DNA of 64,000 nt from an uncultured Marinoscillum sp. (GCA_964527965.1 CAZGPH010000002.1:97072-161071); one strand, 5' to 3'; positions 50,610-64,000 are shown, counted from the first letter of the stretch. Made by a program: numbers and translations. Notes: generated from the sequence alone by a model not told the origin.

Positions 50610-50673
50610 AATTTTACAGATAATTTGATAAAGTATTATTTATTGATTTATATATATTTAAATTATCAATCAA

Positions 50674-51846
50674 ATGAGAATTTATATAACTATTTTAATT
50701 CTATCAATATTTAATATTGAAATTTATGCTCAAGATAAAATTAGGGCAAGAGATTTAGGAATACCTTTTAATGGGAATCCAGGAAAATATAACTCTATAA
50801 CAGATATAGATGGTATTCTTGTAGGACATGAAACTATAATTGAGGGAGAGGGGAATCTCATAATCGGTAAAGGTCCTATTAGAACTGGAGTTACATCTAT
50901 ATTACCAAGAGGAATGGAATATGATCCTGTATTTGCTGGTTGGTACTCATTAAATGGAAATGGTGAAATGACAGGAACAACATGGGTTGAAGAGTCAGGT
51001 TTTTTAGAGGGTCCAATAATGATAACTAATACTCATAGTGTAGGGGTTGTTAGAGATGCAGTTATCGAATGGAGTTATAAAAATAATTTTTTTAAAACAT
51101 TATACAATATAGAAGATCTTTTTTGGGCATTACCAGTTGTAGCAGAGACATATGATGGATCACTAAATGACATTAATGGGTTTCATGTAAAAAAAGAACA
51201 TGCTTTTAAAGCACTAAATAATGCTAAAGGGGAAATAATTAGTGAGGGAAATGTCGGTGGGGGAACCGGTATGATTTGCCATGGATTTAAAGGAGGAATT
51301 GGCACATCATCAAGGGTAATATCTATACAAAATGAAGAATATACAGTTGGAGTATTGGTTCAGGCTAACTATGGAAATAGAGAAGATTTAACTATCGCAG
51401 GAGTACCTATAGGTAAAGAGATAAAAAATCTCCAACCAAAAATTACTTTTGGTGAAAAAAGAGAAGGATTAGGATCAATTATTGTAGTAGTAGCTACAGA
51501 TGCTCCACTTCTTCCAAATCAACTAAAAAGATTGGCAAGAAGAGTACCTGTTGGAATTTCTAAAGTAGGAGGTTTTGGATCAAACGGTTCTGGAGATATT
51601 TTTATTGCTTTCTCTACTGCAAATCCCGAAGCATATAATAGAGAAGAAATAAAAAAAATTAGTTTTTTACCTAACGATCTAATGAACCCTTTCTTAAAAG
51701 CTACTGCTCAAGCAACAGAGGAAGCAATAATCAATGCATTAGTTTCTGCTGATACAATGACTGGAATAAATAATAATACTGTGTACAATTTACCACATGA
51801 TGAGCTAAAAAAAATATTAAAAAAGTATAATAGGATTTATGAATAA
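50674..51846 (+). CDS. exported P1/S58-family peptidase (DmpA/BapA-type aminopeptidase)
   Basis: 390 aa. Signal peptide MRIYITILILSIFNIEIYAQ. RARDLGIPFNGNPGKYNSITDIDGILVGH...IRTGVTSILP and GNVGGGTGM...GGIGTSS match the DmpA-family pattern. Confidence 0.8.
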   Translation: MRIYITILILSIFNIEIYAQDKIRARDLGIPFNGNPGKYNSITDIDGILVGHETIIEGEGNLIIGKGPIRTGVTSILPRGMEYDPVFAGWYSLNGNGEMTGTTWVEESGFLEGPIMITNTHSVGVVRDAVIEWSYKNNFFKTLYNIEDLFWALPVVAETYDGSLNDINGFHVKKEHAFKALNNAKGEIISEGNVGGGTGMICHGFKGGIGTSSRVISIQNEEYTVGVLVQANYGNREDLTIAGVPIGKEIKNLQPKITFGEKREGLGSIIVVVATDAPLLPNQLKRLARRVPVGISKVGGFGSNGSGDIFIAFSTANPEAYNREEIKKISFLPNDLMNPFLKATAQATEEAIINALVSADTMTGINNNTVYNLPHDELKKILKKYNRIYE

Positions 51847-53290
51847 AAAAATAGAAAATTTTATAGGTGGAAAATTTTATAAGTCTCAAAATAATACAAT
51901 ATCTATTTATAATCCGCAAGAAGGTAAAATAATAGCTGAAGTTATTGACTCAACTAATGACGATTTAGATTTAGCAATTAAATCTGCTAAATCTGCATAT
52001 GAAAGCTGGTCAAAGTATACTCTAAAAGAAAGAGCTGAAGTTTTTTATGAGTTTAGAAATCAATTAATTAATAATTTAGATTCTCTCTCAAAATCTATTG
52101 TTGATGAAAATGGCAAGACTCTAGATGAAGCTAAAGCTGAGGTTTTAAAAGGAATCGAACTTACAGAATTTGCATGCTCAATGCCACAAATTATTAATGA
52201 TGAAATACAAGAAGTTAGTAAAGGCGTAGAATGTAGGTCATCACATGAATCAATCGGTTTAGTAGCATCTATAGCTCCATTTAATTTCCCAATTATGGTG
52301 CCAATGTGGACAATTCCAAATGCCTTAATATTAGGAAATTGTATGATTTTTAAACCATCTGAACAAACACCTATAGGAGTATCCAAAATTGCTGAATTAT
52401 TAAAGTTATCTGGTTTACCTGATGGTGTTTTTAATGTCATAAATGGAGATAAAAAAATTGTTGAAGCAATATGTGAAAGTGAAGATATTTCTGCTGTTTC
52501 ATTTGTTGGATCAACTAAAATAGCCAAATTAGTTTATCAATTATCAACTCAAAATTTAAAAAGATGCATTGCATTAGGAGGAGCTAAGAATCATTTGATT
52601 GTCTTACCTGATGCTGATAAAGATATGGCTTCAGATGATATTCTTGCTTCAATGTCTGGATGCTCTGGACAGAGGTGCATGGCAGCATCAGCTATGGTTG
52701 GAGTTGGTGAAGTTCAAGAGGTTATAGATATGCTGGTGACAAAAGCTAAAAAAATGATTCCAGGAAAAAATTTAGGATCAGTTATATCAAAAGAAGCACA
52801 AAAAAGGATTGAGAATTACATTGATGAAGCTGAAAAAGAAGGTGCAAAAATTATTTTAGATGGAAGAGGAACAAAAGTAAAAGGAAAAGAAAATGGATAT
52901 TTTATTGGCCCAACAATATTAGATTATGTTTCTCCAAAAATGAAGATTGCAAGGGAAGAGGTGTTTGGACCTGTTCTATCAATAATGAGAACTAATGAAA
53001 TTGATGAAGCAATAAAAATTGAAAATAAATCTAGATATGGAAATGCTTCATCTGTTTATACTCAAGATGGTAAATTAGCAGATTATGTAACTAGTCAAGT
53101 TAGTGCTGGTATGGTTGGAATAAATATTGGAGTTCCTGTTCCAAGAGAACCATTCTCATTTGGAGGATGGAATGAATCAAGATTTGGTGTAGGGGATATT
53201 ACTGGAAAAAGTTCTATAAATTTTTGGACCAGGCTCAAAAAGAGAACAACAAAATGGAACAAAGGAGCTAAAAAAAATTGGATGAGTTAA
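51839..53290 (+). CDS. mmsA: CoA-acylating (methyl)malonate-semialdehyde dehydrogenase
   Basis: 483 aa ALDH. MmsA-specific features: FNFPIMVPMW, GGAKNH in place of the usual ELGGK general-base segment, and the catalytic Cys in SGQRCMA. Confidence 0.85.
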   Translation: MNKKIENFIGGKFYKSQNNTISIYNPQEGKIIAEVIDSTNDDLDLAIKSAKSAYESWSKYTLKERAEVFYEFRNQLINNLDSLSKSIVDENGKTLDEAKAEVLKGIELTEFACSMPQIINDEIQEVSKGVECRSSHESIGLVASIAPFNFPIMVPMWTIPNALILGNCMIFKPSEQTPIGVSKIAELLKLSGLPDGVFNVINGDKKIVEAICESEDISAVSFVGSTKIAKLVYQLSTQNLKRCIALGGAKNHLIVLPDADKDMASDDILASMSGCSGQRCMAASAMVGVGEVQEVIDMLVTKAKKMIPGKNLGSVISKEAQKRIENYIDEAEKEGAKIILDGRGTKVKGKENGYFIGPTILDYVSPKMKIAREEVFGPVLSIMRTNEIDEAIKIENKSRYGNASSVYTQDGKLADYVTSQVSAGMVGINIGVPVPREPFSFGGWNESRFGVGDITGKSSINFWTRLKKRTTKWNKGAKKNWMS

Positions 53291-53293
53291 GAT

Positions 53294-54619
53294 ATGGATA
53301 CAAAAAAATATAATCTAGATAATACAATCTTTGCTTGGTCTAATCAAAAAGGGCTCGACCCTATCCACGTTAAAAAAGCAGAAGGGGTTCATCTTTATGA
53401 TGAGAATGATAAAAGATACATAGACTTCTCATCACAGCTAATGAATGTAAATATTGGACACGGTAGACAAGAAGTAACAGAAGCCGTAAAAAGACAGATG
53501 GAAAAATTAAGTTACGTTTGTCCTCCCTTTACAACTGACTCAAGAGGAATACTAGGTAAGAAACTTGCAGATATTACCCCTAATAATATCAATAAAACTT
53601 TCTTTACGCTTGGTGGTGCTGAATCAAATGAAAATGCTATAATTCTTGCAAGGCTTTATACTCAAAAACATAAAATAATAACTCACTACAGATCATATCA
53701 TGGTGCTACAATTGGATCTGTTTCAGCAGGTGGAGATCCTAGAAAAAATGAAATTGATAGCCAACAGGTACCTAACTTCATTCATGTAGAAAACCCTTAT
53801 TATTACAGGTGCCCATGGTATTCAAGTAGCTTTGAAGAATGTGGAGAGAGGGCAATTAAAAATTTAGAGAAGACAATTAACTATGAAGGACCAAACAATA
53901 TTGCTGCAATTATGATGGAAGGAGAATCTGGGACCTCAGGATGTATAAAATATCCTCCACTCTACTTAAAGAAAGTTGAGGAGTTATGTAAAAAATATAA
54001 TCTCTTGTTGATCATTGACGAAGTTATGAGTGGATTTTGTAGAACTGGAGAATGGTTTGGATTTGATAATCATTCTATAAAACCTGATATAATTAGCATA
54101 GCAAAAGGAGTTACTTCCGGTTATATTCCATTAGGTGGAATTATGGTGTCTGATGATATTATTAATTCCTTTGATGATAAAGTTTTACCATTAGGACTCA
54201 CTTATTCTGCTCACTCAGTGGCTTGTGCTGCTGCAGTTGCTGTTCTCGAAATTTATGAGAATGAAAATATTATTGAAAATGTTAAAAAAATTGGAAATTA
54301 TACTGATAAGAAAATTGAAAAATTAATGGAAAACCACCCTTCATTTGGAGATTGGAGAAATACAGGGATGTTAGGCTGCATTGAACTTGTTAAAAATAAA
54401 AAAAATAAAGACCCTTTAGCACCATTTAATGCAAACCCTAAGCAAATGAAAGATATGAATAAAGTGATTAAGGTATTAAGAGAAGAAGGGATGTTCACAT
54501 ATACAAAATGGAATTATATTTTTATTGCTCCTCCACTTATATCAACTAAAGATGATATTGATGAAGGAATTGAAATAATATCAAAAGCACTAAAAGTAGC
54601 AGATGAATTTTGTTATTAG
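53294..54619 (+). CDS. class-III (omega-amino acid:pyruvate type) aminotransferase
   Basis: 441 aa. GGAESNENA, IIDEVMSGFCRTG and the PLP-lysine context DIISIAKGVTSGY. Confidence 0.85.
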   Translation: MDTKKYNLDNTIFAWSNQKGLDPIHVKKAEGVHLYDENDKRYIDFSSQLMNVNIGHGRQEVTEAVKRQMEKLSYVCPPFTTDSRGILGKKLADITPNNINKTFFTLGGAESNENAIILARLYTQKHKIITHYRSYHGATIGSVSAGGDPRKNEIDSQQVPNFIHVENPYYYRCPWYSSSFEECGERAIKNLEKTINYEGPNNIAAIMMEGESGTSGCIKYPPLYLKKVEELCKKYNLLLIIDEVMSGFCRTGEWFGFDNHSIKPDIISIAKGVTSGYIPLGGIMVSDDIINSFDDKVLPLGLTYSAHSVACAAAVAVLEIYENENIIENVKKIGNYTDKKIEKLMENHPSFGDWRNTGMLGCIELVKNKKNKDPLAPFNANPKQMKDMNKVIKVLREEGMFTYTKWNYIFIAPPLISTKDDIDEGIEIISKALKVADEFCY

Positions 54620-54625
54620 AAAGTA

Positions 54626-56137
54626 ATGGAGATTAAACTAATTATTTTATTTCTCTATTTTCTGATCCTATTTTTTATAGGATGGCAATCATCTAAAAGA
54701 ATTAAAGACATTAAAGATTATTATGTTGGTGGTAAGAAGTTAGGATTTTGGGTAGTAGCTTTTTCTACAAGAGCAACAGGTGAATCAGCCTGGCTATTGC
54801 TTGGTTTAACTGGCCTTGGAGCTATGGTAGGTGTTAGTGCTTTCTGGGTTGTGTTAGGTGAAGTATTAGGGGTTTTTGGTGCATGGTTCTTTATGGCTAA
54901 AAAATTTAAAAAACTTTCTGACAAGTATAAATCTATAACAATTACTGATTATTTAGTAAGAAGACTTGGTTCAAAAACTAATCATCTTAGATATTTATCT
55001 TCCATCTTTCTCACCTTTTTTATAATTATATATGTAAGTGCTCAAATTGATGCAACTGGATCAGCATTTGAAGCATTTATGAATTGGAATTATTTTTTTG
55101 GAGCAATTATAGGTTACATAATTGTGTTAGCTTATGTTGTTTTTGGTGGATTTATAGCTGTAGCATGGTCAGATTTAATTCAAGGTAGTCTTATGTTCAT
55201 GGCATTGATAATATTACCATTAATAGGTTATGCAACTTTTGATGGAGATTTTATGATGATAGACGGGTTAAAAGATATTGATGATGGACTTATTTCTATA
55301 TGGGGTAAAGGAGGATTTAATTCAATTAACCTCTCCACTATTATTGGATATTTATGTATAGGGTTGGCATTTTTAGGTTCCCCTCAAATTTTTGTGAGAT
55401 TTATGTCTATAAAAAATGAAACTGAAATAAATAAGGGAAGATGGGTGGCAGTTATATTTACTCTAATTACTGATTCATGTGCTGTATTAATTGGTATGAT
55501 GGCTAGATATTTTTTTACTGAAAATGGATTAGACGTTGAACAAATACTTGGTAATAATGGACAAAATTCTTTAATTATAATGGTAGAAAGCCTTTTGCCA
55601 TTATTATTTATTGGCTTCTATATGGCAGTAGTCCTTGCTGCTATAATGTCGACAGTTGACTCGCTTTTAGTACTTGCCTCAAGTGCATTCGCAAGAGATA
55701 TATATCAAAATGTTTTTAATCCAAAAATTAATATTACCAAATTAACATTTATATCTAAAATCACAACTTTTGCAATGGCTTCAGTTGCTTTAATCGTTGC
55801 TATTTCAGTTGCAAACTTGACTCCTGAAAGAACTATATTTTGGTTTGTATTAGTAGGTTTTCATGGAATTGCAGCAAGTTTTTGTCCTACTATAATACTT
55901 TCCTTATTCTGGAGGGGTTTATCAGAAACAGGAGCTATTGCTTCAATGATAATAGGGTTTCTTGGTGTATTAATTTTCAAATTTGTTATTCCAAATTTTG
56001 AGCCATACGGAATATATTTTAATAATATAGCTGAACTAGCACCTGCTATGATATTAGGTTTATTAGCAGGATATATATTTTCAAAGCTTTACCCCAATCC
56101 TGAATTAGAAAGAGAATTTGATGAATTATATAAATAA
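54626..56137 (+). CDS. sodium:solute symporter (SSS family, PutP-like)
   Basis: 503 aa with about 13 TM segments. YYVGGKKLG...ATGESAWLLLGLTG resembles the PutP N-terminal signature. Confidence 0.85.
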   Translation: MEIKLIILFLYFLILFFIGWQSSKRIKDIKDYYVGGKKLGFWVVAFSTRATGESAWLLLGLTGLGAMVGVSAFWVVLGEVLGVFGAWFFMAKKFKKLSDKYKSITITDYLVRRLGSKTNHLRYLSSIFLTFFIIIYVSAQIDATGSAFEAFMNWNYFFGAIIGYIIVLAYVVFGGFIAVAWSDLIQGSLMFMALIILPLIGYATFDGDFMMIDGLKDIDDGLISIWGKGGFNSINLSTIIGYLCIGLAFLGSPQIFVRFMSIKNETEINKGRWVAVIFTLITDSCAVLIGMMARYFFTENGLDVEQILGNNGQNSLIIMVESLLPLLFIGFYMAVVLAAIMSTVDSLLVLASSAFARDIYQNVFNPKINITKLTFISKITTFAMASVALIVAISVANLTPERTIFWFVLVGFHGIAASFCPTIILSLFWRGLSETGAIASMIIGFLGVLIFKFVIPNFEPYGIYFNNIAELAPAMILGLLAGYIFSKLYPNPELEREFDELYK

Positions 56138-56154
56138 ATATTATATTTAATAAA

Positions 56155-57810
56155 ATGAAAAAGTTTAGTAGAAGAGAGTTTGTTGCTTCATTAGGTCCTC
56201 TTGCCATGATGTCATGTTATTCAGAAAAAGCTGATACTATTTTATATAACGCGAAAATAATAACCGTTAACCCTGACCAACCCACTGCAGAAGCTATTGC
56301 CATAAGTGGAGATAAAATTATTGCAATTGGAAGCAATAATGATGTGATGAATCTTGCATCTACATATACCAAAAAAATTGATGTTGAAGGGAATGTCATG
56401 ACTCCTGGTTTTATTGATGCCCACTCCCACCCTGCTGGTGCCGGAAGATCTCACCTTAGAAAGGTTGATTGTGACCTTAGATCCATAAGTGAGATTCAAG
56501 ATGCAATCTTTAAAAGATCAAAAAATACTCCCAAAGGAGAATGGATCAGCGGGTTTAAATACGATGACACAAAGACAAAAGAAAAAAGATTTATTAACAA
56601 TAAAGACTTAGATGAGGTTGCTCCTGATCACCCAGTAATTATAACTCACAGAGGAGGTCATACCGCATATGTAAACTCAATGGCTCTTAAACTATCAGGA
56701 ATTGATGAGAATACACCTAATCCAGAGGGAGGAAGTATAGAAAGAGATCAAGTCTCAGGAAAAATAAATGGTAGACTACTTGAAAGCGCAACATATCTTG
56801 TTGAAAAATTAATTCCAAATGAATTTACTAGAGCTGACTATCAAGCGGGGGCAAAATTGATTTCTGAAATGCTATCTAAATCTGGAATAACCTCAGTAAC
56901 TGATGCTGGAACTGGAGTAAGATCACTACAGAGTTACCAAGACGCGTATTCTAGTGGAGAACTTAAAACAAGAATTTATTGTATGATAAGAGGTTATGCA
57001 TTTGATGAAGTTAACGACTCTGGTAAAAAAACAGGCCATGGGGATGAATGGGTAAGAATTGGTGCATTAAAGTTAGCATGTGATGGGTCAATTTCTGAAA
57101 GAACAGCAAGACTTTCTGAACCATATATTGGTAGACCAAATGATTATGGCATAATAGTCCACGACGAGGAACATCTATATGAAGAAGCTCTTAAGGCACA
57201 CTTAAATGATTGGCAGATTGGGATTCACGCTAATGGAGATGTTGGTATAGATATAGCTTTAAAAGTTTATGAGAGGTTACAAAAAGAAAAATTTAGAGAA
57301 GATCCAAGGTTTAGATTAGAACACTGTACGGTGATTAATAAATCCTTGATAGAGAGGATAAAGGCTTTAAATGCAATACCAAATCCTTTTTCAACATATG
57401 TATACTTCCATGGAGAAAAAATGAAAGAATATGGTAAAAAAAGACTTGAAAACATGTTTGCTGTAAGAAGTTTTCTTGATGCTGGTATTAATGTCACCCA
57501 AACATCTGATTATCCTCCCGGACCTTATGAGCCAATGATGGCAATTCAATCTAGTGTAACTAGGACTGATTATACTGGAGAAGTATGGGGTCCAAGTCAG
57601 AAAATAAGTGTTGAGGAAGCAATTAAAGTTGCTACAATTAATGGTGCTTACGCATCATATGAAGAAAATATTAAGGGTTCTCTAGAGATTGGCAAGTTAG
57701 CTGATTTAGTTATTTTGGGACAAAATCCGATGAAAATTGACCCAATGAAAATTATTGATATACCAATTGAGAGAACAATGGTTGGAGGAAAATGGTCCTA
57801 TGAATCTTAA
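56155..57810 (+). CDS. exported Amidohydro_3 (YtcJ-like) metal-dependent amidohydrolase
   Basis: 551 aa. N-terminus SRREFVASLGPLAMMSC (Tat-like RR plus lipobox). GFIDAHSHP metal motif, HANGD, and a C-terminal LADLVILGQNP motif. Confidence 0.8.
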   Translation: MKKFSRREFVASLGPLAMMSCYSEKADTILYNAKIITVNPDQPTAEAIAISGDKIIAIGSNNDVMNLASTYTKKIDVEGNVMTPGFIDAHSHPAGAGRSHLRKVDCDLRSISEIQDAIFKRSKNTPKGEWISGFKYDDTKTKEKRFINNKDLDEVAPDHPVIITHRGGHTAYVNSMALKLSGIDENTPNPEGGSIERDQVSGKINGRLLESATYLVEKLIPNEFTRADYQAGAKLISEMLSKSGITSVTDAGTGVRSLQSYQDAYSSGELKTRIYCMIRGYAFDEVNDSGKKTGHGDEWVRIGALKLACDGSISERTARLSEPYIGRPNDYGIIVHDEEHLYEEALKAHLNDWQIGIHANGDVGIDIALKVYERLQKEKFREDPRFRLEHCTVINKSLIERIKALNAIPNPFSTYVYFHGEKMKEYGKKRLENMFAVRSFLDAGINVTQTSDYPPGPYEPMMAIQSSVTRTDYTGEVWGPSQKISVEEAIKVATINGAYASYEENIKGSLEIGKLADLVILGQNPMKIDPMKIIDIPIERTMVGGKWSYES

Positions 57811-60718
57811 AAAAATAATTCAAAGTCTTTCTAGTATTTTATTAATTATAATTTTTCCAATAGAAATATTAGCTCAACAAAATAAAATTACATCTGATTT
57901 GAGATGGAGAAATATTGGGCCTTCCAATATGATGGGTCGTATAGCTGCTATTGATGCAAGTAATACTGATTATAGAAATGTTTTAATAGCTTCGGCTTCA
58001 GGAGGTGTATTTAAATCAGAAAATGCTGGAATAACATGGGAAAGCATTTTTGATACCTATGGAGCTGGATCAATAGGATCTGTAAAATTTGATCAAAAAA
58101 ACTTGAACACAATTTGGGTTGGAACTGGAGAATCTGCTAACAGAAATTCTAGCGCATGGGGTGATGGGATTTACAAATCAGTAGATGGTGGCAAATCATT
58201 TAAAAATATGGGGCTAGAAAATACTCATCAAATTGCAGAAATTGAAATTCATCCCAATAACTCAGATATAGTATTTGCCGCTGCTGTAGGACATCTTTGG
58301 GGATATTCAGGAGATAGAGGATTATTTCGTACTAATGATGGAGGCAACTCATGGAAAAAAGTTTTAGGAGGTCTACCAAATGATGGTAAAACTGGTTGTA
58401 CAGAAATTATTTTTCATCCTAGTGATCCTGATATAATTTATGCTGGATTTTATCACAGATTAAGACAGCCTGCTAGTTTTGAAAGTGGAGGAGAAAAAGG
58501 TGGTTTATTTAAGAGTATTGATGGAGGTATAACATGGAAAAAAATCACTAATGGACTTGCAAAAGGAAGTAGTGGGATGATAGATATATCAATTCATCTG
58601 AATAACCCAGATATAATGGTTATGGCATATGAAGCAGATGAAAACTTACCTGAAGATGAACCTGGTACTGGTGTATATATATCTTATGATGCTGGAGAAT
58701 CATGGAAATTTTTATTAAAACATGCTGTTAGGCCATTTTACCATGGTCAAATTGAAATTGATCCTATTAACCCTAATAATATTTATGTCGTATCAAGAGG
58801 TTTTATGATTTCAAATGATGGTGGGAAAACATTTGGGCCACGCAGATGGCGGACAGATGGAGGTGATGATCATGATATGTGGATAGCTCCATATGATAAT
58901 AAAATAATGTATATAGCAACTGATCAAGGTTCTCGCTTATCTATCGACGGAGGAAGTACTTGGTTATCTCATAACAATATGGCCATAGGACAGTATTATG
59001 CTATAGGTGTAGATATGAGGGACCCTTATCATGTAGGTGGCGGACTTCAAGATAATGGACTTTGGATGACACCTAGTAATAGTAGAGAGTACAGAGGTAT
59101 CCTTAATATGCATAGTACTTGGATTGCTGAAGGAGATGGATTTCATACTCAAATTGATCCTGAGGATTGGAGGACTGTATATACTGTTAATCATGTTGGA
59201 TTTGTAGCTAGACAAAATATAGAGACAAGAGAATATACATTTATAACTCCAACACCAGAAACTATATCTAACTTCAAGGATTTTGTCAATTTTAAATATG
59301 ATGAGACAAGAAATAAATATACAATTGATCCAGGAGAACATTGGTTTTTTAGAGAAAGACCAGATAGACCCCTTCTTCCACCTCAATTTAGATTTAATTG
59401 GAGCAGCCCTTTTATAATATCATCGCACGACTCAAAAAAAGTTTTATTTGGATCTAATCATTTATTTCAATCAAATGACAGAGGTGATAATTGGAAAATA
59501 ATAAGTCCCGACTTAACAACAAATGACAAAAAGCTAAGAAATACATCTAATGGAGGAGGTCTAACCAATAGCAATACGGGTGGAGAAAATCATTACACTA
59601 TAATTACGATAAGCGATACACCAATTGATACAAGTATCATATGGGTAGGTACTGATGATGGAAATGTCCAGATAACAAAAGATGGTGGAAAAATATGGGA
59701 AAATGTTAGAGATAACTTCAGTAATGTGCCAAATAAATCATGGGTTAGTAGAGTTGAAGCTTCTAAACATAAGAAAGGAACAGCATACGTAACATTTGAC
59801 AATCACAGGTTTGATGATAATAGACCTTATGTGTATGTTACAGATGACTATGGAAAATCATGGAAAAATATAACAGGAAATCTTCCTGAAAAATATTCGG
59901 TCTATGTAATTAAGGAAGATTATATAGATGAAAATTTATTATTTGTTGGAACTGAAGAATCAGTTTATTTTTCAAAAGATAAAGGAAATTCTTGGGAAAA
60001 ATTAGGTAAAAATTTACCAACTGTAGCTATTCATGATCTTGTAATTCATCCTAGAGAAGGAGATATTATTGCAGGAACACACGGGAAAAGTATTTGGATA
60101 TTAGATGATATATCACCGCTTAGATTCTTAAAGAAAGATAAATCTAACCTTCTTCCAACTAGAATATCAACAAAATGGATAAAAATAAATACAGGAAGAA
60201 AACAACCGTATTTTGAATTTAGAGGAGAAAATCCTCCATATGGTGCAATTATTAATTTTTATAGTAATTCTAAAATAAATGGAGAATTATTAATTTCAAA
60301 AGATAAATTTGAATCAGAAGAAAAAGCTCCAAGTTTCAAAAAATCTATAGAAATAAATAAAGGGATAAATAGATTCATTTGGCCTTTTAAGCTTAAAAGG
60401 ACAGAAGAGGAATTAATTAATTACAGAAATAAATTCGTTGACATAAAAGAGTCTTTCAAAGAAATTGTAGTTGACAGGAAAGGATTAAATTCTTATAATT
60501 TTAAAGAACAAAAATCTTTTAGTGATCTTAATAAATTAAGAAAGAAATTTTTAGATAATTATGGTATGTATGCCAATGGAAAGAAAATGTTTGGAGATAA
60601 ATTATATAATGAATTTGATGTCGAGCAGGGAATATATAACGTAATGATTCGCCTTGATAATGGAGATACATTTACAGATAAAATTATTGTTAGAGAAGAC
60701 CCAATAAAATCTAATTAA
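57800..60718 (+). CDS. exported BNR/Sortilin-VPS10-like tandem beta-propeller protein
   Basis: About 972 aa from the ATG at 57800 (MNLKKIIQSLSSILLIIIFPIEILAQ, a signal peptide). Many S-x-D-x-G-x-x-W (BNR/Asp-box) repeats: SVDGGKSF, TNDGGNSW, SIDGGITW, SYDAGESW, SNDGGKTF, SIDGGSTW, SNDRGDNW, TKDGGKIW, TDDYGKSW, SKDKGNSW. Confidence 0.7.
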   Translation: MNLKKIIQSLSSILLIIIFPIEILAQQNKITSDLRWRNIGPSNMMGRIAAIDASNTDYRNVLIASASGGVFKSENAGITWESIFDTYGAGSIGSVKFDQKNLNTIWVGTGESANRNSSAWGDGIYKSVDGGKSFKNMGLENTHQIAEIEIHPNNSDIVFAAAVGHLWGYSGDRGLFRTNDGGNSWKKVLGGLPNDGKTGCTEIIFHPSDPDIIYAGFYHRLRQPASFESGGEKGGLFKSIDGGITWKKITNGLAKGSSGMIDISIHLNNPDIMVMAYEADENLPEDEPGTGVYISYDAGESWKFLLKHAVRPFYHGQIEIDPINPNNIYVVSRGFMISNDGGKTFGPRRWRTDGGDDHDMWIAPYDNKIMYIATDQGSRLSIDGGSTWLSHNNMAIGQYYAIGVDMRDPYHVGGGLQDNGLWMTPSNSREYRGILNMHSTWIAEGDGFHTQIDPEDWRTVYTVNHVGFVARQNIETREYTFITPTPETISNFKDFVNFKYDETRNKYTIDPGEHWFFRERPDRPLLPPQFRFNWSSPFIISSHDSKKVLFGSNHLFQSNDRGDNWKIISPDLTTNDKKLRNTSNGGGLTNSNTGGENHYTIITISDTPIDTSIIWVGTDDGNVQITKDGGKIWENVRDNFSNVPNKSWVSRVEASKHKKGTAYVTFDNHRFDDNRPYVYVTDDYGKSWKNITGNLPEKYSVYVIKEDYIDENLLFVGTEESVYFSKDKGNSWEKLGKNLPTVAIHDLVIHPREGDIIAGTHGKSIWILDDISPLRFLKKDKSNLLPTRISTKWIKINTGRKQPYFEFRGENPPYGAIINFYSNSKINGELLISKDKFESEEKAPSFKKSIEINKGINRFIWPFKLKRTEEELINYRNKFVDIKESFKEIVVDRKGLNSYNFKEQKSFSDLNKLRKKFLDNYGMYANGKKMFGDKLYNEFDVEQGIYNVMIRLDNGDTFTDKIIVREDPIKSN

Positions 60719-62843
60719 TCTCTCCCCTAGCTAACCTAGATAAAAAATCAGCTGTTGACTTATTAACCTTCATTTGATTCTTAAACATCATAAAGTGGTG
60801 AGTATCATCAACAATAACCATTGTCTCCATATAAACTTTTTTATTTCTTAATCTTTGAACCAAATCTGTACTATGTTTAAAATATACATTTCTGTCATCA
60901 TCTGCATGAATGATTAATACCGGAGATTCCCATGTATTAACATCTGCAATGGGTGATGATTCCCAAGCAGTTTTTCTTGCTAATTCATAATCGGGAGCTT
61001 TCTCATAGTTAATAGAGTTTAGGTATCCATATAGAGTCCTATCATGCACACCATGTATATCAACTCCTCCAGAGAATAATTGAGAGTCTCTACCAAGTGC
61101 CATTGCTGTCAGATAACCTCCATAACTACCCCCATACACATAGATTCTATCTTCATCTATATAATTTTGATCCTTTAACCATAAACCAGCTGCTTTTACG
61201 TCTTTGTACTCTGACGCACCCCTAGTACCTCCATCTATTGGATTATGAAATTCATATCCATATCCAATTCCAAGTCTATAGTTAACTGATATTACCACAA
61301 AATCTTTACTTGCTAAATATTGATTTAGTGCATATGCATTTGAGTAGTAAGATGAATAATGCCAACCTAATAACATTTGTCTAGGAGGACCACCGTGGAT
61401 ATATATTATTGCTGGTTTATTTTTTTTATTATCATTCTTCTCAAATTTAGTAGCATAAACTTCAATACCATCTGTTGATTTAAATTTTATTTGTGTTGGT
61501 ATTACCATTTTTTCTAAAGGAAAGTCTTTAGGAATCCTATCTTGAGCTAATATTTTCTTTTTATTTGTACCTAAATCTAATATAGTAGGAAGAGGTGGTC
61601 TTGTTGGAGTTGCACTTATGTAAGCTACATGTTTCAAATCACCAGTAATTAATGGAGTCCATTCCAAACCAATACCATTAGTAAGAACTTTCATATCAGA
61701 CTTATCAACTGATACATGAACTATATGTCTTCTGTCAATATCATAATTATCATCCCCTGTATTTGCTGTAAATACTATTGATTTTTTATCTGGAGATAGT
61801 TTTATGTACTCACACATAAAATCACCTGGAGTTAATAAAAGTGCCTCCCCTCCATTTTCAGAAATAGAGTATAAATGTTGCCACCCATCATGGTAAGATA
61901 AAAATACAATCCTATTGCTTGCCCAATGTAAATTTGTTCCTCCCTGAGTTCTTGGATAAGAACCTCTTAAAGTTTTTGGGGCAGTCCATAACTCTTTACT
62001 TACCATTGATTTAACATCTGTCTTCACTATTTTCCATGGGTTATGTTTCCCACCTAAAATAGAACTTGGTTTACCTGCGGCACCTGGTTGTCTTATATAT
62101 ACAATTTCTTTCCCGTCCGGTGACCATCTTGGTGAAGTATCTCTGTCAAAAGATGGATTCATCCATTTAATATTTTTTCCAGAGAGATTAATTAACATCC
62201 CTTCTGAATCTAAATTAGCTGCCTCATAAATTCCAATAAAGGATCTATCACCTCTGTATGAAACAAATGCTATTTTTGATCCATCAGGAGACCATGAATG
62301 AGATCCGTTTCTTCCTCTTGCATGAAATATTTTCTTAGGATCACCTTTACCATCTATGGAAGATATCCATATCTGTCCATCTTTAATATATGCAATTTCA
62401 TTACTGAGCGGTGATATGACTGGATTTATGCCTTCATCAATCATAATTGGATCTCCACCTGAAAATGCTACAGCCCATATTTGCACCTTTGGAGGAATAG
62501 GATTAAAAGTTGGATTTACAGGGAGTTCATCATCCCAATTAGAACCAAAGTCTCCACCTCTTATATATACTATCCAATTACCATCAGGTGAAATAGAAAC
62601 ACTCGAGAGCTCTTGACCAGTATCTTCCATGTAGGAAGTCAATCTTCTTGCAACAAATTTGGGTCCCATAGCAACATATATATTTCTCTTACCTTCTTCG
62701 TCAAACGCCCAGGCAATTCTTGAGGCATCAGATGAACCAGTCAGTTCATTAGGGAATGGATATGATTTAATTTGATCTAAAGTAAATTCCTCCTGAGAAA
62801 AACAAATGTGTGTGAAAAAAAATAAAAAAATAAAAAATCTCAT
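60711..62843 (-). CDS. exported S9-family serine peptidase (TolB-like propeller + prolyl-oligopeptidase/DPP alpha/beta-hydrolase domain)
   Basis: 710 aa. Signal peptide, propeller blades (SPDGNWIVY, SPDGSKIAF, SPDGKEIVY, SPDKKSIVF), nucleophile elbow GGSYGGY, and later DDDRNV and HH for the Asp/His of the triad. Confidence 0.85.
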   Translation of the reverse strand: MRFFIFLFFFTHICFSQEEFTLDQIKSYPFPNELTGSSDASRIAWAFDEEGKRNIYVAMGPKFVARRLTSYMEDTGQELSSVSISPDGNWIVYIRGGDFGSNWDDELPVNPTFNPIPPKVQIWAVAFSGGDPIMIDEGINPVISPLSNEIAYIKDGQIWISSIDGKGDPKKIFHARGRNGSHSWSPDGSKIAFVSYRGDRSFIGIYEAANLDSEGMLINLSGKNIKWMNPSFDRDTSPRWSPDGKEIVYIRQPGAAGKPSSILGGKHNPWKIVKTDVKSMVSKELWTAPKTLRGSYPRTQGGTNLHWASNRIVFLSYHDGWQHLYSISENGGEALLLTPGDFMCEYIKLSPDKKSIVFTANTGDDNYDIDRRHIVHVSVDKSDMKVLTNGIGLEWTPLITGDLKHVAYISATPTRPPLPTILDLGTNKKKILAQDRIPKDFPLEKMVIPTQIKFKSTDGIEVYATKFEKNDNKKNKPAIIYIHGGPPRQMLLGWHYSSYYSNAYALNQYLASKDFVVISVNYRLGIGYGYEFHNPIDGGTRGASEYKDVKAAGLWLKDQNYIDEDRIYVYGGSYGGYLTAMALGRDSQLFSGGVDIHGVHDRTLYGYLNSINYEKAPDYELARKTAWESSPIADVNTWESPVLIIHADDDRNVYFKHSTDLVQRLRNKKVYMETMVIVDDTHHFMMFKNQMKVNKSTADFLSRLARGEIN

Positions 62844-62846
62844 GAA

Positions 62847-64000
62847 TTAATATTTTGCAGGAGAATTAGGGATAGTTTTTTTAATGAAGTCTCTTATATC
62901 ATCATTTGAATTTTTCAAATCTTCTCTTCTTAAATACATCATATGACCACTCTCATACCCTTTAAAAGATAATCTGTCTTTCATTTTACCACTTGGGTCT
63001 AATTGCCACATAGTATATTTTGCATCAAAATACTGAGTAGCACCATCATAGTAACCTGATTGAATCATTACATTTAAAAATGGGTTCTTTGCCATAGCCT
63101 GTCTCAAATTATCTCCTGTGTTATCATTGTCCCTATTCCATGGTCTAACATTTCCCCAGACGTTATAATTCATATTTGTTTTATAATTCAAATCATTATT
63201 CAGATAGTGTTGCATTGCAGGGGTAAATGCATGATCCCAGGCATCTAGTTCAGGATAACTCCCTACTGATACTCCAGAATTTTTTTTATCAATACCTCTA
63301 TATCTAGAATCTAACCTACCTAATATAAAACCCTCATCATATAGTAATTTTTTCCAAAAGTATTGATTTGATACATCAAGATTATTATCAGTGTAATCTC
63401 TATCGGTTAGACCTGAATACCTTCCTGCTTTCTTTGCAATTTCATTTTTCTTATTATCAGAAATAGAATTACCAAGAGAGATTGCTGGTAATAGTTCATC
63501 GATTGTAAAGTTTTCGACCTCGCTTAATAGATCTAATAATTCTCTACTCTGAAGTTCATCATCTAATTTATTATGGTACCAAGCAGTTGCTGTAAAATAT
63601 GGTAATCTTAATGCTGAGTCAACAGGACCATCTCTTTTAATTCCAAGGCCTGTAGGAGAAACTAAAATAACACCATTAAGATACGTAGTGTGCCACCTAC
63701 TTTGAAGCTCTAAAGCCATACCAGAACATCTTGTTGTTCCATAACTCTCACCAATAAGATATTTTGGAGAGAGCCATCTATCATATTTATTTATAAAATC
63801 CTCTACCCACTGTGATAAATATTTTATATCAGAATTTACTCCAAAAAAATTCGATCTATCATAATCTTTATCTAATATTCTCGAAAGACCTACATTCACT
63901 GGATTAACGTAAACAATATCTGCAACATCAATTATTGAATACGGATTTTCTTTTATACCATATGGTTGAACAGGAAATCCTTCATCATCTATATTTAAAG
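62847..64000 (-). CDS. S10-family serine carboxypeptidase-like protein (5' end beyond window)
   Basis: The frame stays open upstream of the track's GTG at 63899 (...DIVYVNPVNVGLSR) all the way to the window edge. Nucleophile motif GESYGTTR, as in the GESYAG of S10. Late HMMY histidine. Confidence 0.7.
   Translation of the reverse strand, partial: LNIDDEGFPVQPYGIKENPYSIIDVADIVYVNPVNVGLSRILDKDYDRSNFFGVNSDIKYLSQWVEDFINKYDRWLSPKYLIGESYGTTRCSGMALELQSRWHTTYLNGVILVSPTGLGIKRDGPVDSALRLPYFTATAWYHNKLDDELQSRELLDLLSEVENFTIDELLPAISLGNSISDNKKNEIAKKAGRYSGLTDRDYTDNNLDVSNQYFWKKLLYDEGFILGRLDSRYRGIDKKNSGVSVGSYPELDAWDHAFTPAMQHYLNNDLNYKTNMNYNVWGNVRPWNRDNDNTGDNLRQAMAKNPFLNVMIQSGYYDGATQYFDAKYTMWQLDPSGKMKDRLSFKGYESGHMMYLRREDLKNSNDDIRDFIKKTIPNSPAKY

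What the first reader, a model, noticed from the sequence alone, without database searches (positions are those of the whole stretch)
50674..57810. Compact cluster predicted to scavenge beta-/omega-amino-acid conjugates: exported DmpA/BapA peptidase + MmsA + omega-transaminase + Na+ symporter + exported amidohydrolase
Five co-directional genes are separated by -8, 3, 6 and 17 nt. The two hydrolases carry export signals: a Sec signal on the S58 peptidase, and a Tat-like RR plus lipobox on the Amidohydro_3 enzyme. The transaminase and MmsA are cytoplasmic, and a PutP-like SSS transporter sits between them. Characterised S58 enzymes (DmpA, BapA, BapF) release N-terminal beta- or D-amino acids. 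Class-III omega-transaminases convert beta-alanine or 3-aminoisobutyrate to (methyl)malonate semialdehyde, and MmsA turns that into acetyl- or propionyl-CoA. Read together, the genes form a self-contained route: periplasmic release, Na+-coupled uptake, transamination, then CoA-ester formation. Candidate substrates include beta-alanyl peptides (the carnosine/anserine type) or other beta-alanine or aminoisobutyrate amides. I do not know this gene arrangement as a described pathway in marine Flavobacteriia.
Basis: inference. Interest (0 to 1): 0.6.

Follow-up and report, generated by a model that had tools for sequence, protein, structure and literature searches.

The report
Beta-alanine conjugate scavenging operon
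A marine Cytophagales bacterium has joined the last two enzymes of pyrimidine breakdown (beta-alanine to acetyl-CoA) to exported hydrolases and a sodium symporter, probably to feed on beta-alanine locked in small amides or peptides; this is a new arrangement of known enzyme families, not a new kind of system.

Summary
Five co-directional genes lie at the stated coordinates, with gaps of -8, 3, 6 and 17 nt and the stated families. A sixth gene was missed: an exported BNR/Sortilin-like protein at 57800-60718 that overlaps the amidohydrolase stop by 11 nt.

The host is a Marinoscillum-like planktonic Cytophagales, not Flavobacteriia.

The transaminase's closest solved relative is a taurine:2-oxoglutarate transaminase. 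Gene context nevertheless points to beta-alanine:
- In 65 of 74 Bacteroidota loci its orthologue sits directly behind the MmsA orthologue.
- In 52 of 65 it is followed by dihydropyrimidinase, usually with a CN-hydrolase and dihydropyrimidine dehydrogenase. This is the known extended reductive pyrimidine pathway.
- In a sister clade an inositol cassette, which also ends in malonate semialdehyde, is inserted next to MmsA.

The exported hydrolases are linked to this pair repeatedly and in different gene orders:
- MmsA-TA-S58-beta-lactamase-fold hydrolase-NSS symporter (Christiangramia and others).
- MmsA-TA-S58-Pyd genes (Puia).
- Amidohydrolase-MmsA-TA (Ohtaekwangia).
- TA-amidohydrolase-S58-MMSDH-S58 (a metagenome contig).

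The substrates are untested, the lipobox is not conserved, and I could not show what the amidohydrolase does. Novelty: new variant of a known kind. Interest about 0.5.

The parts
50610..50673 (+). 64-nt AT-rich intergenic region between the divergent HlyIII/TrhA gene and the S58 gene; presumed promoter of the operon
   Evidence: Position only. The sigma-70 scan found no more sites than shuffled sequence. The alignment with L013, L093 and L100 is conserved only in the closest relative. Inference.
50674..51846 (+). Exported DmpA/BapA-type Ntn aminopeptidase (MEROPS S58/P1), 390 aa. Sec signal approximately residues 1-19. Autoprocessing site G266|S267 (GSIIVVVATD). S-G-D at 306-308.
   Evidence: Pfam PF03576, 394 bits. 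Best PDB hits are DmpA 1B65 (359 bits) and BapA 3N2W (338 bits), with the nucleophile region aligned. Residue positions. The signal peptide is conserved in orthologues.
51839..53290 (+). CoA-acylating (methyl)malonate-semialdehyde dehydrogenase MmsA/IolA, 483 aa. Catalytic Cys280 in GQRCMA. Overlaps the S58 stop by 8 nt.
   Evidence: TIGR01722, 500 bits against a cut-off of 448.5. The top 10 PDB hits are all MMSDH. Residue. The orthologue lies next to the TA in 65 of 74 loci. An inositol cassette is inserted directly behind it in the sister clade.
53294..54619 (+). Class-III (omega) aminotransferase of the PRK06062 group, 441 aa. PLP-binding Lys271, Asp242. Predicted beta-alanine/3-aminoisobutyrate transaminase (PydD-like); amino acceptor undetermined.
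   Evidence: NF004718, 486 bits against 472. Best PDB hit 6JIX, taurine:2-oxoglutarate TA, 322 bits, roughly 40% identity read off the printed alignment. Orthologues lie in MmsA-TA-NCS1-dihydropyrimidinase-CN hydrolase-DPD operons.
54626..56137 (+). Sodium:solute symporter (SSS family), 503 aa, PutP/PanF-like but not an orthologue of either. Predicted uptake of the released beta-amino acid.
   Evidence: PF00474, 235 bits. PutP model 313 against a cut-off of 515.5; PanF 181 against 328. The TA-SSS adjacency extends to relatives with 65-70% identity (L010, L017). It is replaced by an NSS/SNF symporter in the Christiangramia-type operon.
56155..57810 (+). Tat-exported YtcJ-like Amidohydro_3 metallohydrolase, 551 aa. 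SRREF twin-arginine motif. HxH at 90/92. Substrate unknown.
   Evidence: PF07969, 327 bits. Best PDB hit 3ICJ, uncharacterised. RR motif invariant, Cys21 not conserved. Orthologues at 58-71% identity flank MmsA-TA in Ohtaekwangia and Cyclobacteriaceae. A 62% orthologue lies in the L142 cluster with S58 + MMSDH + TA.
57800..60718 (+). Sixth operon gene: secreted BNR/Asp-box, Sortilin-Vps10-like beta-propeller protein, 972 aa. Its start overlaps the amidohydrolase stop by 11 nt. Function unknown.
   Evidence: Pfam PF15902, PF02012. Called as 972 aa on identical contigs. Conserved behind the amidohydrolase in all clade members. No informative PDB relative. Distant BNR proteins lie near MmsA-TA in L050 and L088.
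60711..62843 (-). Conserved convergent neighbour, not claimed as part of the operon: exported S9 prolyl-oligopeptidase-family peptidase with a PD40 propeller. Its stop overlaps the BNR stop by 8 nt.
   Evidence: Pfam PF00326, PF07676. Conserved at this position in L013-L015 and L007-L009.
62847..63899 (-). Conserved neighbour, not claimed as part of the operon: S10 serine carboxypeptidase. The ORF listed ends at 63899; the full gene is 498 aa on identical contigs.
   Evidence: PF00450 on the full-length gene in L001. Conserved in L013-L015.

Best explanation
This is a six-gene operon (50674-60718) of a Marinoscillum-like marine Cytophagales. It most likely harvests beta-alanine, and possibly 3-aminoisobutyrate, from extracellular amide or peptide conjugates and uses it as a carbon and nitrogen source.

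Proposed steps:
1. In the periplasm, the Sec-exported DmpA/BapA-type S58 aminopeptidase removes an N-terminal beta-aminoacyl residue. The Tat-exported YtcJ-like amidohydrolase opens another C-N bond in the same or a related substrate. The secreted BNR propeller protein has an unknown accessory role.
2. The SSS symporter imports the free beta-amino acid with Na+.
3. The class-III transaminase converts it to malonate or methylmalonate semialdehyde.
4. MmsA converts that to acetyl- or propionyl-CoA.

Shown here: gene order and overlaps; family membership above curated cut-offs; catalytic residues; conserved export signals; orthology of TA+MmsA to the terminal pair of reductive pyrimidine (Pyd) operons; and repeated independent linkage of S58 and this amidohydrolase to TA/MmsA.

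Inferred: the substrates, the location of each hydrolysis, what the transporter carries, and the amino acceptor.

Evolutionary reading: MmsA-TA is a shared 'malonate-semialdehyde sink' onto which different upper modules are attached. These are Pyd genes in most Bacteroidota, exported hydrolases plus a symporter here, and an inositol cassette in the sister clade.
For: Operon structure:
- Anatomy and overlaps.
- The six genes are conserved at 75-100% identity across the clade.

The MmsA-TA pair acts on beta-alanine / malonate semialdehyde:
- MmsA passes TIGR01722, and all top PDB hits are MMSDH.
- In 80 GTDB genome loci with TA orthologues at 59-90% identity, MmsA lies co-directional within 1 kb upstream in 65 of 74 loci with enough flank.
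- Of 65 loci with at least 3.5 kb downstream, 52 have dihydropyrimidinase (TIGR02033, 584 vs 393), 49 a CN-hydrolase and 44 a PreT/PreA-like DPD. An NCS1 permease or a cytidine deaminase is often present too. This matches the published Pyd cluster with PydD + MSDH (PMC7332683).
- A TA + malonate-semialdehyde DH operon has been shown biochemically to be a beta-alanine pathway in Pseudomonas (PMC4907197).
- In the sister clade, iolB-C-D-E-G plus a transporter are inserted between MmsA and TA. Inositol catabolism also ends in malonate semialdehyde (established knowledge of the iol pathway).

S58 is linked to the pair:
- Christiangramia sp. and two other genomes carry [AsnC regulator]-MmsA(59%)-TA(59-60%)-S58(71%)-exported PF00144 hydrolase-SNF symporter.
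- Puia has MmsA-TA-S58(57%)-NCS1-DHPase.
- Of 27 metagenome S58 loci with at least 3 kb on both sides, 12 have a co-directional class-III TA within 3.5 kb and 5 an amidohydrolase.

The amidohydrolase is linked to the pair:
- Orthologues at 58-71% identity flank MmsA-TA in Ohtaekwangia and Cyclobacteriaceae.
- L142 has TA-Amh3(62%)-S58-like-MMSDH-S58(63%).

Other support:
- Export signals are conserved.
Against: - No experiment exists on any of these proteins.
- The TA's nearest solved relative is a taurine:2-oxoglutarate transaminase, and JGI labels some orthologues that way.
- 15 of 27 well-flanked S58 relatives have no TA, amidohydrolase or M28 neighbour, and one looked up by protein stands alone. 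The family is therefore not tied to this pathway everywhere.
- DmpA-type enzymes also cleave N-terminal D-Ala and some L-residues, so beta-specificity cannot be read from the sequence.
- The amidohydrolase has no characterised close relative, and its structure could not be modelled.
- The symporter is below the cut-off of every equivalog model.
- No regulator is adjacent in the window.
- I could not check whether this genome lacks PydABC elsewhere.
Confidence: 0.6

Rival explanations
1. Loose association. TA, MmsA and the symporter take up and burn free beta-alanine or 3-aminoisobutyrate from seawater. S58, the amidohydrolase and the BNR protein are general periplasmic scavengers of peptides and amides. 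They share the operon, and the neighbourhood with the S9 and S10 peptidases, only for common regulation of organic-nitrogen use, not because their products feed the TA.
For: - Exported S9 and S10 peptidases are conserved next door.
- An M20 peptidase lies upstream in L093 and L100.
- 15 of 27 S58 relatives have no TA nearby.
- DmpA-type enzymes have broad N-terminal specificity (knowledge of the family).
- The amidohydrolase substrate is unknown.
Against: - S58 and this amidohydrolase are linked to TA and/or MMSDH in at least five different gene orders and lineages, with non-orthologous replacement of the transporter (SSS/SNF) and of the second hydrolase (Amidohydro_3/PF00144).
- General peptidases would yield alpha-amino acids, which need neither a class-III TA nor MMSDH.
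Confidence: 0.17
2. An exported substitute for the pyrimidine upper pathway. The Tat-exported amidohydrolase hydrolyses ureido or cyclic-amide compounds in the periplasm (dihydropyrimidines, N-carbamoyl-beta-amino acids, hydantoins). This gives beta-alanine or 3-aminoisobutyrate, which is then imported. S58 has only a side role.
For: - Loci with the amidohydrolase directly beside MmsA-TA lack DHPase, CN-hydrolase and DPD, and the Pyd loci lack it. The one exception is L020, where a 56% orthologue lies about 9 kb downstream of the TA, beyond the Pyd genes.
- Dihydropyrimidinase belongs to the same amidohydrolase superfamily.
Against: - The protein is a YtcJ-like Amidohydro_3 and does not match the dihydropyrimidinase, allantoinase or hydantoinase models beyond weak N-terminal hits.
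- A single metallohydrolase would not replace both ring opening and decarbamoylation.
- No extracellular pool of such intermediates is known (my own knowledge).
Confidence: 0.1
3. Sulfonate route. The TA is a taurine/hypotaurine:2-oxoglutarate transaminase. The cluster handles taurine released from N-acyl- or peptidyl-taurine conjugates, and the ALDH acts on sulfoacetaldehyde.
For: - Best PDB hit is BkToa 6JIX (322 bits, against 180 for beta-alanine:pyruvate TA 4B98).
- JGI names some orthologues 'taurine--2-oxoglutarate transaminase'.
- From memory, EC 2.6.1.55 enzymes accept both taurine and beta-alanine.
Against: - Identity to BkToa is only about 40%, against 59-67% to the Pyd-operon orthologues.
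- The ALDH passes the MMSDH model, and the SafD model is not among its 25 best matches.
- No Xsc-type TPP enzyme, sulfoacetaldehyde reductase or sulfite exporter was found in the cluster or among the recurrent neighbours of 80 loci. The only TPP enzyme nearby belongs to the inositol cassette.
Confidence: 0.06
4. D-amino-acid peptide salvage, for example of peptidoglycan stem peptides. S58 acts as a D-aminopeptidase like DmpA and its partner hydrolases are D-stereospecific. The TA/MmsA pair is unrelated.
For: - DmpA is a D-Ala-preferring aminopeptidase, and several sources label S58 homologues 'D-aminopeptidase'.
- The PF00144 partner in the Christiangramia-type operon resembles D-peptidases and D-amino-acid amidase.
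Against: D-alanine is not a substrate class for class-III transaminases or MMSDH. This reading therefore leaves the recurring S58-TA-MMSDH linkage unexplained.
Confidence: 0.04

Closest known systems
Extended reductive pyrimidine (Pyd) pathway: PydA/B/C + PydD (beta-alanine aminotransferase) + MSDH, uracil to acetyl-CoA. Described for Bacillus megaterium (Zhu 2020, Yin 2019, as cited in PMC7332683).
   Same: The window's TA and MmsA are orthologues (about 60% identity) of the pair that heads MmsA-TA-NCS1-dihydropyrimidinase-CN hydrolase-DPD operons in most Bacteroidota. The two terminal reactions are predicted to be the same.
   Different: No PydA, PydB, PydC or nucleobase permease lies in the cluster or elsewhere in the window. 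They are replaced by exported hydrolases, an SSS symporter and a BNR protein, so the source of beta-alanine is extracellular conjugates, not pyrimidines.
Pseudomonas beta-alanine systems: the bapF (PA1486) - permease (PA1485) - regulator (PA1484) operon (PMC13344977), and the beta-alanine:pyruvate TA + malonate-semialdehyde DH operon (PMC4907197; bauABCD from memory).
   Same: An S58 beta-alanyl aminopeptidase is coupled to a transporter, and a TA + MSDH pair makes acetyl-CoA from beta-alanine.
   Different: In Pseudomonas the two parts are separate loci. The TA belongs to another class-III subgroup (4B98 scores only 180 bits), the permease is described as an amino acid permease, not an SSS symporter, and no amidohydrolase or BNR protein is involved. 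Here everything is fused into one operon and both hydrolases carry export signals.
BapA/DmpA beta-peptidyl aminopeptidases (Sphingosinicella BapA, Ochrobactrum DmpA)
   Same: Same family and fold. The self-processing Gly/Asn-Ser site and the catalytic S-G-D/E are conserved. From memory, BapA is also made with a signal peptide.
   Different: Those enzymes were characterised mainly on synthetic beta-peptides and for carnosine synthesis. The papers I read do not place them in a catabolic operon with TA and MMSDH.
Nylon-oligomer pathway of Arthrobacter sp. KI72 (NylC, P1/S58 family; NylB, PF00144; NylD, class-III TA; NylE, ALDH). From memory, not checked here.
   Same: Same logic and the same protein families: hydrolases release an omega-amino acid from amide oligomers, followed by an omega-transaminase and a semialdehyde dehydrogenase. 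The Christiangramia-type operon (MmsA-TA-S58-PF00144-SNF) has the same family composition.
   Different: The aldehyde dehydrogenase here is a CoA-acylating MMSDH specific for C3/C4 semialdehydes. The hydrolases are exported. The substrate would be a natural beta-amino acid conjugate, not 6-aminohexanoate oligomers. This is an analogy, not membership.

Membership tests
Peptidase family S58/P1 (DmpA/BapA Ntn aminopeptidases) | Match to the family model above the curated cut-off, and close similarity to solved members | tested here: met
   PF03576, 394 bits against 23.9. DmpA 1B65, 359 bits; BapA 3N2W, 338 bits.
Peptidase family S58/P1 (DmpA/BapA Ntn aminopeptidases) | Autoproteolytic Gly/Asn-Ser site giving an N-terminal Ser nucleophile, plus the downstream S-G-D/E catalytic motif | tested here: met
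   G266|S267 (GSIIVVVATD) aligns with the DmpA GS and BapA NS sites. SGD at 306-308 aligns with the DmpA SGD and BapA SGE. Whether processing actually occurs was not testable.
Peptidase family S58/P1 (DmpA/BapA Ntn aminopeptidases) | Release of N-terminal beta- (or D-) amino acids | not testable with these tools
   Requires an enzyme assay. The only support is context, namely linkage to class-III TA and MMSDH.
CoA-acylating methylmalonate/malonate-semialdehyde dehydrogenase (MmsA/IolA, TIGR01722) | Score above the curated subfamily cut-off; catalytic Cys preceded by the substrate-carboxylate Arg | tested here: met
   500.3 bits against 448.5. GQRCMA with Cys280. All top 10 PDB hits are MMSDH. 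The role of the Arg is from memory of B. subtilis MSDH studies.
CoA-acylating methylmalonate/malonate-semialdehyde dehydrogenase (MmsA/IolA, TIGR01722) | Genomic association with pathways that produce malonate or methylmalonate semialdehyde | tested here: met
   Heads Pyd operons in 65 of 74 loci. An inositol cassette is inserted directly behind it in the sister clade.
PydD-type beta-alanine aminotransferase (class III, PRK06062 group) | Class-III fold with a PLP lysine; subfamily model above cut-off | tested here: met
   PF00202, 298 bits; NF004718, 486 against 472. Lys271 and Asp242 are invariant in A1.
PydD-type beta-alanine aminotransferase (class III, PRK06062 group) | Orthologues encoded in reductive pyrimidine operons | tested here: met
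   52 of 65 loci with dihydropyrimidinase, 49 with CN-hydrolase, 44 with DPD. I could not compare directly with the B. megaterium PydD sequence, which was not available.
PydD-type beta-alanine aminotransferase (class III, PRK06062 group) | Activity on beta-alanine or 3-aminoisobutyrate, as opposed to taurine | not testable with these tools
   The nearest solved homologue is a taurine:2-oxoglutarate TA at about 40% identity. Substrate preference needs an assay.
Reductive pyrimidine (Pyd) operon as a whole | Presence of PydA (DPD), PydB (dihydropyrimidinase) and PydC (beta-ureidopropionase) with the TA and MSDH | tested here: not met
   None of these lies in the cluster or anywhere in the 64-kb window. 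The Amidohydro_1 gene at 18593-20176 does not match the dihydropyrimidinase model. The rest of the genome was not available.
Sodium/proline symporter PutP or sodium/pantothenate symporter PanF | Score above the curated equivalog cut-off | tested here: not met
   PutP 312.7 against 515.5; PanF 180.6 against 328. Only membership of the SSS superfamily is met (TIGR00813, 209 against 184).
YtcJ-like Amidohydro_3 metallohydrolases | Family model match and the HxH metal-binding motif | tested here: met
   PF07969, 327 bits. AHSHP at residues 89-93, with the HxH histidines H90 and H92 invariant in 14 orthologues. JGI names orthologues 'predicted amidohydrolase YtcJ'.
   S/N-R-R-x-F-[VIL] is found in all orthologues, including distant ones. 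R6, R7 and F9 are invariant.
   Cys21 is replaced by Phe in P0395 (93% identical) and in 7 others of 14. It is absent in L016, L020, L038 and L050.
Taurine catabolic cluster (Toa/Tpa + Xsc or sulfoacetaldehyde reductase) | Partner enzyme acting on sulfoacetaldehyde encoded nearby | tested here: not met
   No such partner was seen in the window or among the recurrent neighbours of 80 TA loci. The ALDH fits MMSDH, and SafD is not among its listed matches.

The most novel reading that the evidence does not exclude
DmpA/BapA-type S58 'beta-aminopeptidases', whose natural role has been unclear, may be the entry enzymes of a widespread modular pathway. In it, exported hydrolases free beta-amino acids from natural conjugates for omega-transaminase/MMSDH catabolism. 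The presence of a complete six-gene version in an abundant planktonic Cytophagales lineage would imply a significant, so far unmeasured pool of beta-alanyl or beta-aminoisobutyryl compounds in marine dissolved organic matter. The Tat-exported YtcJ-like amidohydrolase and the BNR propeller protein would then catalyse or assist steps not yet described.
Probability: 0.4. Interest if true: 0.65.

Novelty: new variant of a known kind. Interest (0 to 1): 0.5.

Why it matters
- It gives DmpA/BapA-family peptidases a concrete, testable physiological role. These enzymes have been studied mostly as biocatalysts. Proposed role: beta-aminoacyl conjugate to beta-alanine to acetyl-CoA.
- It gives an uncharacterised group of Tat-exported YtcJ-like amidohydrolases a pathway context.
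- It shows how one terminal module (MmsA-TA) is reused behind interchangeable upper modules: pyrimidines, inositol, or exported hydrolases.
- It warns against transferring the 'taurine--2-oxoglutarate transaminase' label to this group by similarity alone.
- It points to beta-alanine-containing compounds as a possible carbon and nitrogen source for streamlined marine Bacteroidota.

All enzyme families involved are known, so this is an incremental advance, not a new principle.

Tried and rejected
- **Structure of the amidohydrolase.** AlphaFold2 on 14 orthologues (75-100% identical) gave mean pLDDT 41. I ran no fold search because matches to such a model would be meaningless.
- **Promoters and terminators.** Both scans found no more sites than shuffled sequence, so they say nothing about operon boundaries in this AT-rich DNA.
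- **Upstream intergenic region.** The alignment across four clade members was conserved only in the nearest relative, so no operator can be claimed.
- **An early conclusion I had to correct.** From I first concluded that S58 and MmsA are absent from the sister clade. One search shows they lie 8.4 kb upstream, separated from the TA by an inserted inositol cassette.
- **Neighbours of the Ohtaekwangia-type loci.** Pfam scans found nothing functionally linked apart from BNR proteins.
- **The BNR protein.** It has no informative solved relative.
- **Literature not available.** The BkToa paper and the two Pyd-extension papers are not in the library. Statements about them rest on PMC7332683 or on memory, and are marked as such.
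- **Literature searches.** Several searches for a prior description of this cluster found none.
- **Homologue search for the amidohydrolase.** It returned only the same marine clade and added no functional names beyond 'YtcJ'.

Full report

Yes. The spacings are -8, 3, 6 and 17 nt.

Family assignments hold:
- Peptidase_S58, 394 bits.
- An aldehyde dehydrogenase that passes the curated model for CoA-acylating methylmalonate-semialdehyde dehydrogenase (TIGR01722, 500 against 448.5).
- A class-III aminotransferase that passes NF004718/PRK06062 (486 against 472).
- An SSS symporter that resembles PutP (313 bits) and PanF (181 bits) but is below both cut-offs.
- An Amidohydro_3 protein, 327 bits.

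Catalytic residues are in place:
- S58: self-processing site G266|S267 and the S-G-D motif.
- MmsA: Cys280 in GQRCMA.
- TA: Lys271.
- Amidohydrolase: HxH (H90, H92).

A 972-aa BNR/Sortilin-Vps10-like protein with a signal peptide starts at 57800, 11 nt before the amidohydrolase stop, and ends at 60718. There it overlaps the stop of a convergent S9 peptidase gene by 8 nt.

The identical locus is found on many independent marine contigs from TARA, JGI and ENA, so it is not an assembly artefact.

**2. Whose genome?**

The nearest named genomes are MAGs labelled Marinoscillum sp., Cytophagales bacterium or Flammeovirgaceae bacterium. Marinoscillum belongs to Cytophagia/Cytophagales.

The rest of the window is housekeeping: leuABCD-like genes, aspS, uvrB, clpP, tig, relA, lpxB and SOD. 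GC content is 25-34% throughout.

**3. The transaminase question**

By sequence alone it does. The best solved relative is the Bifidobacterium taurine:2-oxoglutarate transaminase 6JIX (322 bits, roughly 40% identity). Pseudomonas beta-alanine:pyruvate transaminase 4B98 scores only 180 bits. JGI labels some orthologues 'taurine--2-oxoglutarate transaminase'.

Gene context points the other way. I scanned one genome per GTDB species with an alignment of the TA and obtained 80 loci with orthologues at 59-90% identity. They come from Hymenobacter, Saprospiraceae, Flavobacteriaceae, Balneola, Chitinophagaceae and others. The counts are as follows:
- In 65 of the 74 loci with enough upstream sequence, an MmsA orthologue (58-86% identity) lies co-directional within 1 kb upstream.
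- Of the 65 loci with at least 3.5 kb downstream, 52 carry a dihydropyrimidinase (TIGR02033, 584 against 393).
- 49 carry a CN-hydrolase of the beta-ureidopropionase type.
- 44 carry PreT/PreA-like dihydropyrimidine dehydrogenase subunits.
- An NCS1 nucleobase permease or a cytidine deaminase is often present as well.

This is the reductive pyrimidine (Pyd) pathway extended by PydD (beta-alanine aminotransferase) and MSDH. That pathway is described in the literature (figure legend and references in PMC7332683). A TA + malonate-semialdehyde dehydrogenase operon was shown biochemically to be a beta-alanine pathway in Pseudomonas (PMC4907197).

A second, independent pointer comes from a sister clade with the TA at 80-81% identity. 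There, a myo-inositol cassette (IolB, C, D, E and G plus a transporter) is inserted exactly between MmsA and the TA. Inositol catabolism also ends in malonate semialdehyde, which MmsA/IolA converts to acetyl-CoA (established knowledge).

I therefore read the pair as beta-alanine/3-aminoisobutyrate to (methyl)malonate semialdehyde to acetyl-/propionyl-CoA. The amino acceptor cannot be decided from sequence.

**4. Are the hydrolases and the transporter really part of it?**

*Within the Marinoscillum-like clade.* All six genes are conserved in order at 75-100% identity. I first thought S58 and MmsA were missing from the sister clade. One search corrected this: they are 8.4 kb upstream, on the other side of the inositol insertion.

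*S58 outside the clade.* S58 is linked to the same pair in other arrangements:
- In Christiangramia sp. and two long-read assemblies the order is [divergent AsnC/Lrp regulator]-MmsA(59%)-TA(59-60%)-S58(71%)-exported PF00144 beta-lactamase-fold hydrolase-SNF/NSS sodium symporter.
- In a Puia MAG, S58 (57%) sits between the TA and the Pyd genes.

*The amidohydrolase outside the clade.*
- Orthologues at 58-71% identity stand directly before MmsA-TA in Ohtaekwangia and a Cyclobacteriaceae MAG. A second, 32-36% identical Amidohydro_3 lipoprotein lies behind the TA.
- These loci, like those of the Marinoscillum-like clade, lack the Pyd genes, and the Pyd loci lack this amidohydrolase beside MmsA-TA. 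The exception is L020, where a 56% orthologue lies about 9 kb downstream, beyond the Pyd genes.

*A less biased sample.* I took 80 metagenome loci holding S58 homologues 57-80% identical to the window's protein. Of the 27 with at least 3 kb on both sides:
- 12 have a co-directional class-III transaminase within 3.5 kb. This is mostly a different subgroup, PRK07483.
- 6 have an M28 peptidase.
- 5 have an amidohydrolase.
- 15 have none of these.

One contig, L142, has TA-Amh3(62% identical to the window's amidohydrolase)-S58-like-MMSDH(TIGR01722, 566 bits)-S58(63%).

*What this shows.* The same logic recurs with non-orthologous swaps:
- The symporter is SSS in one arrangement and SNF in another.
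- The second hydrolase is Amidohydro_3, PF00144 or M28.

That argues for functional coupling, not chance proximity. Class-III transaminases and MMSDH are not needed for ordinary alpha-amino acids. The product of S58 is therefore most simply a beta-amino acid.

The linkage is not universal. About half of S58 relatives, and one looked up by protein, stand without such partners.

**5. Localisation**

- Every S58 orthologue examined has an N-terminal hydrophobic signal. The mature start lies near RARDLGIP, which matches the N-termini of DmpA and BapA.
- Every amidohydrolase orthologue has S/N-R-R-x-F-[VIL]. R6, R7 and F9 are invariant.
It is absent in distant orthologues. I accept Tat export but not the lipoprotein.
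- The BNR protein, the PF00144 protein of the other operon type and the neighbouring S9 peptidase also carry signal peptides.

**6. Mechanism proposed**

1. Small beta-aminoacyl conjugates reach the periplasm.
2. S58 removes the N-terminal beta-amino acid.
3. The metallohydrolase opens another C-N bond of the same or a related substrate, for instance an N-blocked or C-terminal amide form.
4. The SSS protein imports the free beta-amino acid with sodium.
5. The TA and MmsA convert it to acetyl- or propionyl-CoA and pass the amino group to central metabolism.

DmpA, BapA and BapF hydrolyse beta-alanyl compounds such as carnosine (PMC9235088). In P. aeruginosa, bapF is required for beta-alanine aminopeptidase activity and lies in an operon with a permease. 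Its authors proposed beta-alanine scavenging (PMC13344977).

Candidate natural substrates are my own speculation and were not tested. They include carnosine, anserine, carcinine, other beta-alanyl amides, pantothenate-type amides and beta-amino-acid-containing cyanobacterial peptides.

The roles of the amidohydrolase and the BNR protein are the weakest links:
- The amidohydrolase has only uncharacterised solved relatives (3ICJ), and it could not be modelled (pLDDT 41).
- The BNR protein has no informative relative.

**7. Rivals**

- *Loose association* (0.17). The hydrolases are general nitrogen scavengers sharing an operon with a free-beta-alanine pathway. The conserved S9, S10 and, in relatives, M20 peptidases nearby favour it. 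The many independent linkages count against it.
- *Exported substitute for the pyrimidine upper pathway* (0.10). The near mutual exclusivity with the Pyd genes favours it. The lack of similarity to dihydropyrimidinase-type enzymes counts against it.
- *Taurine route* (0.06). It is favoured only by the PDB hit and inherited labels.
- *D-amino-acid peptide salvage* (0.04). It leaves the TA/MMSDH linkage unexplained.

**8. Comparison with what is known, and novelty**

Every family here is known, the TA+MSDH step is textbook, and Pyd clusters with PydD+MSDH are described.

What I did not find described, in seven literature searches, is the fusion of that terminal pair with exported S58 and YtcJ-type hydrolases and a sodium symporter. 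Nor did I find the recurring S58-transaminase coupling across phyla.

From memory, the nylon-oligomer pathway (NylC/NylB/NylD/NylE) uses the same families in the same logic. That is an analogy only.

I rate the finding a new variant of a known kind and score interest at 0.5. It gives the beta-aminopeptidases and one group of exported amidohydrolases a testable natural role. It also shows neat module swapping around a malonate-semialdehyde sink. It does not reveal a new principle, and nothing is shown biochemically.

Noticed in passing
window 46302-47357 (-): A 351-aa protein whose C-terminal two-thirds consists of about 16 copies of a 9-residue unit (DFQKFMKGA and variants). It is encoded by a 27-nt tandem array at 46312-46759 (16.5 copies, 66% matches). 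It has an N-terminal hydrophobic segment and no Pfam hit on identical contigs. Copy number appears to vary: 315 aa in L003 against 351 aa elsewhere.
   Followed up: partly
window 43154-46219 (-): A 1021-aa ORF with no Pfam family on record. It is conserved upstream of the cluster in relatives (1018 aa in L093).
   Followed up: no
L100 12633-20918; also L007-L009, L015, L016: In a sister clade a seven-gene myo-inositol cassette (KduI/IolB, PfkB/IolC, TPP enzyme IolD, IolE, two GFO/IolG genes and an SSS transporter) is inserted exactly between MmsA and the transaminase. MmsA apparently serves both pathways as IolA.
   Followed up: yes
L093 2775-4313; L100 4626-6155: Relatives carry an M20 peptidase (about 510 aa) a few kb upstream of the S58 gene. 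This is the family that contains carnosinases and yeast-type beta-ureidopropionase. The gene is absent at the corresponding place in the window.
   Followed up: no
L142 445-7878 (metagenome contig Ga0136615_10001879): A separate lineage carries class-III TA (GABA-T-like) - amidohydrolase 62% identical to the window's - a divergent S58-like protein (463 aa) - MMSDH (TIGR01722, 566 bits) - S58 (63%). The same four families appear in another order.
   Followed up: partly
L170, L178, L179, L164 and L173, L175, L166, L114, L140, L149, L153: Two recurrent cluster types occur in metagenomes whose source was not checked: PRK07483-type class-III transaminase - S58 - amidohydrolase (510 aa), and transaminase - M28 peptidase with PA and TFR-dimer domains (about 750 aa) - S58. 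Neither is described as far as I could find.
   Followed up: partly
window 56215-56217 (codon 21 of the amidohydrolase): The Cys in the signal peptide (MMSCY) is Phe in a 93% identical sequence (MMSFY) and in most clade members. A single-base difference removes the apparent lipobox.
   Followed up: yes
window 18593-20176 (+), and the small gene on the far side of aspS (approx. 21993-22442): An Amidohydro_1 protein of 527 aa, weakly Xaa-Pro-dipeptidase-like and not a dihydropyrimidinase. A cytidine/dCMP deaminase-family gene lies beyond the intervening aspartyl-tRNA synthetase gene. Neither is linked to the cluster.
   Followed up: partly
window 32017-33645 (+): A second aldehyde dehydrogenase in the window is a P5C (L-glutamate gamma-semialdehyde) dehydrogenase (TIGR01236, 781 bits). 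A small HTH_5 regulator gene lies just upstream. It is not related to the finding.
   Followed up: partly
window 60711-60718: The convergent BNR and S9 peptidase genes overlap by 8 nt at their stop codons, which leaves no room for a terminator between them.
   Followed up: no
L095 3043-3531 (-); L098 3085-3573 (-): An AsnC/Lrp-type regulator is divergently placed before the MmsA-TA-S58-PF00144-SNF operon in two genomes. An Lrp-type beta-alanine-responsive regulator (BarR) is known in Sulfolobus (PMC4977709). The window cluster has no adjacent regulator; the only AsnC-type gene in the window is 43 kb away (7339-7797).
   Followed up: no
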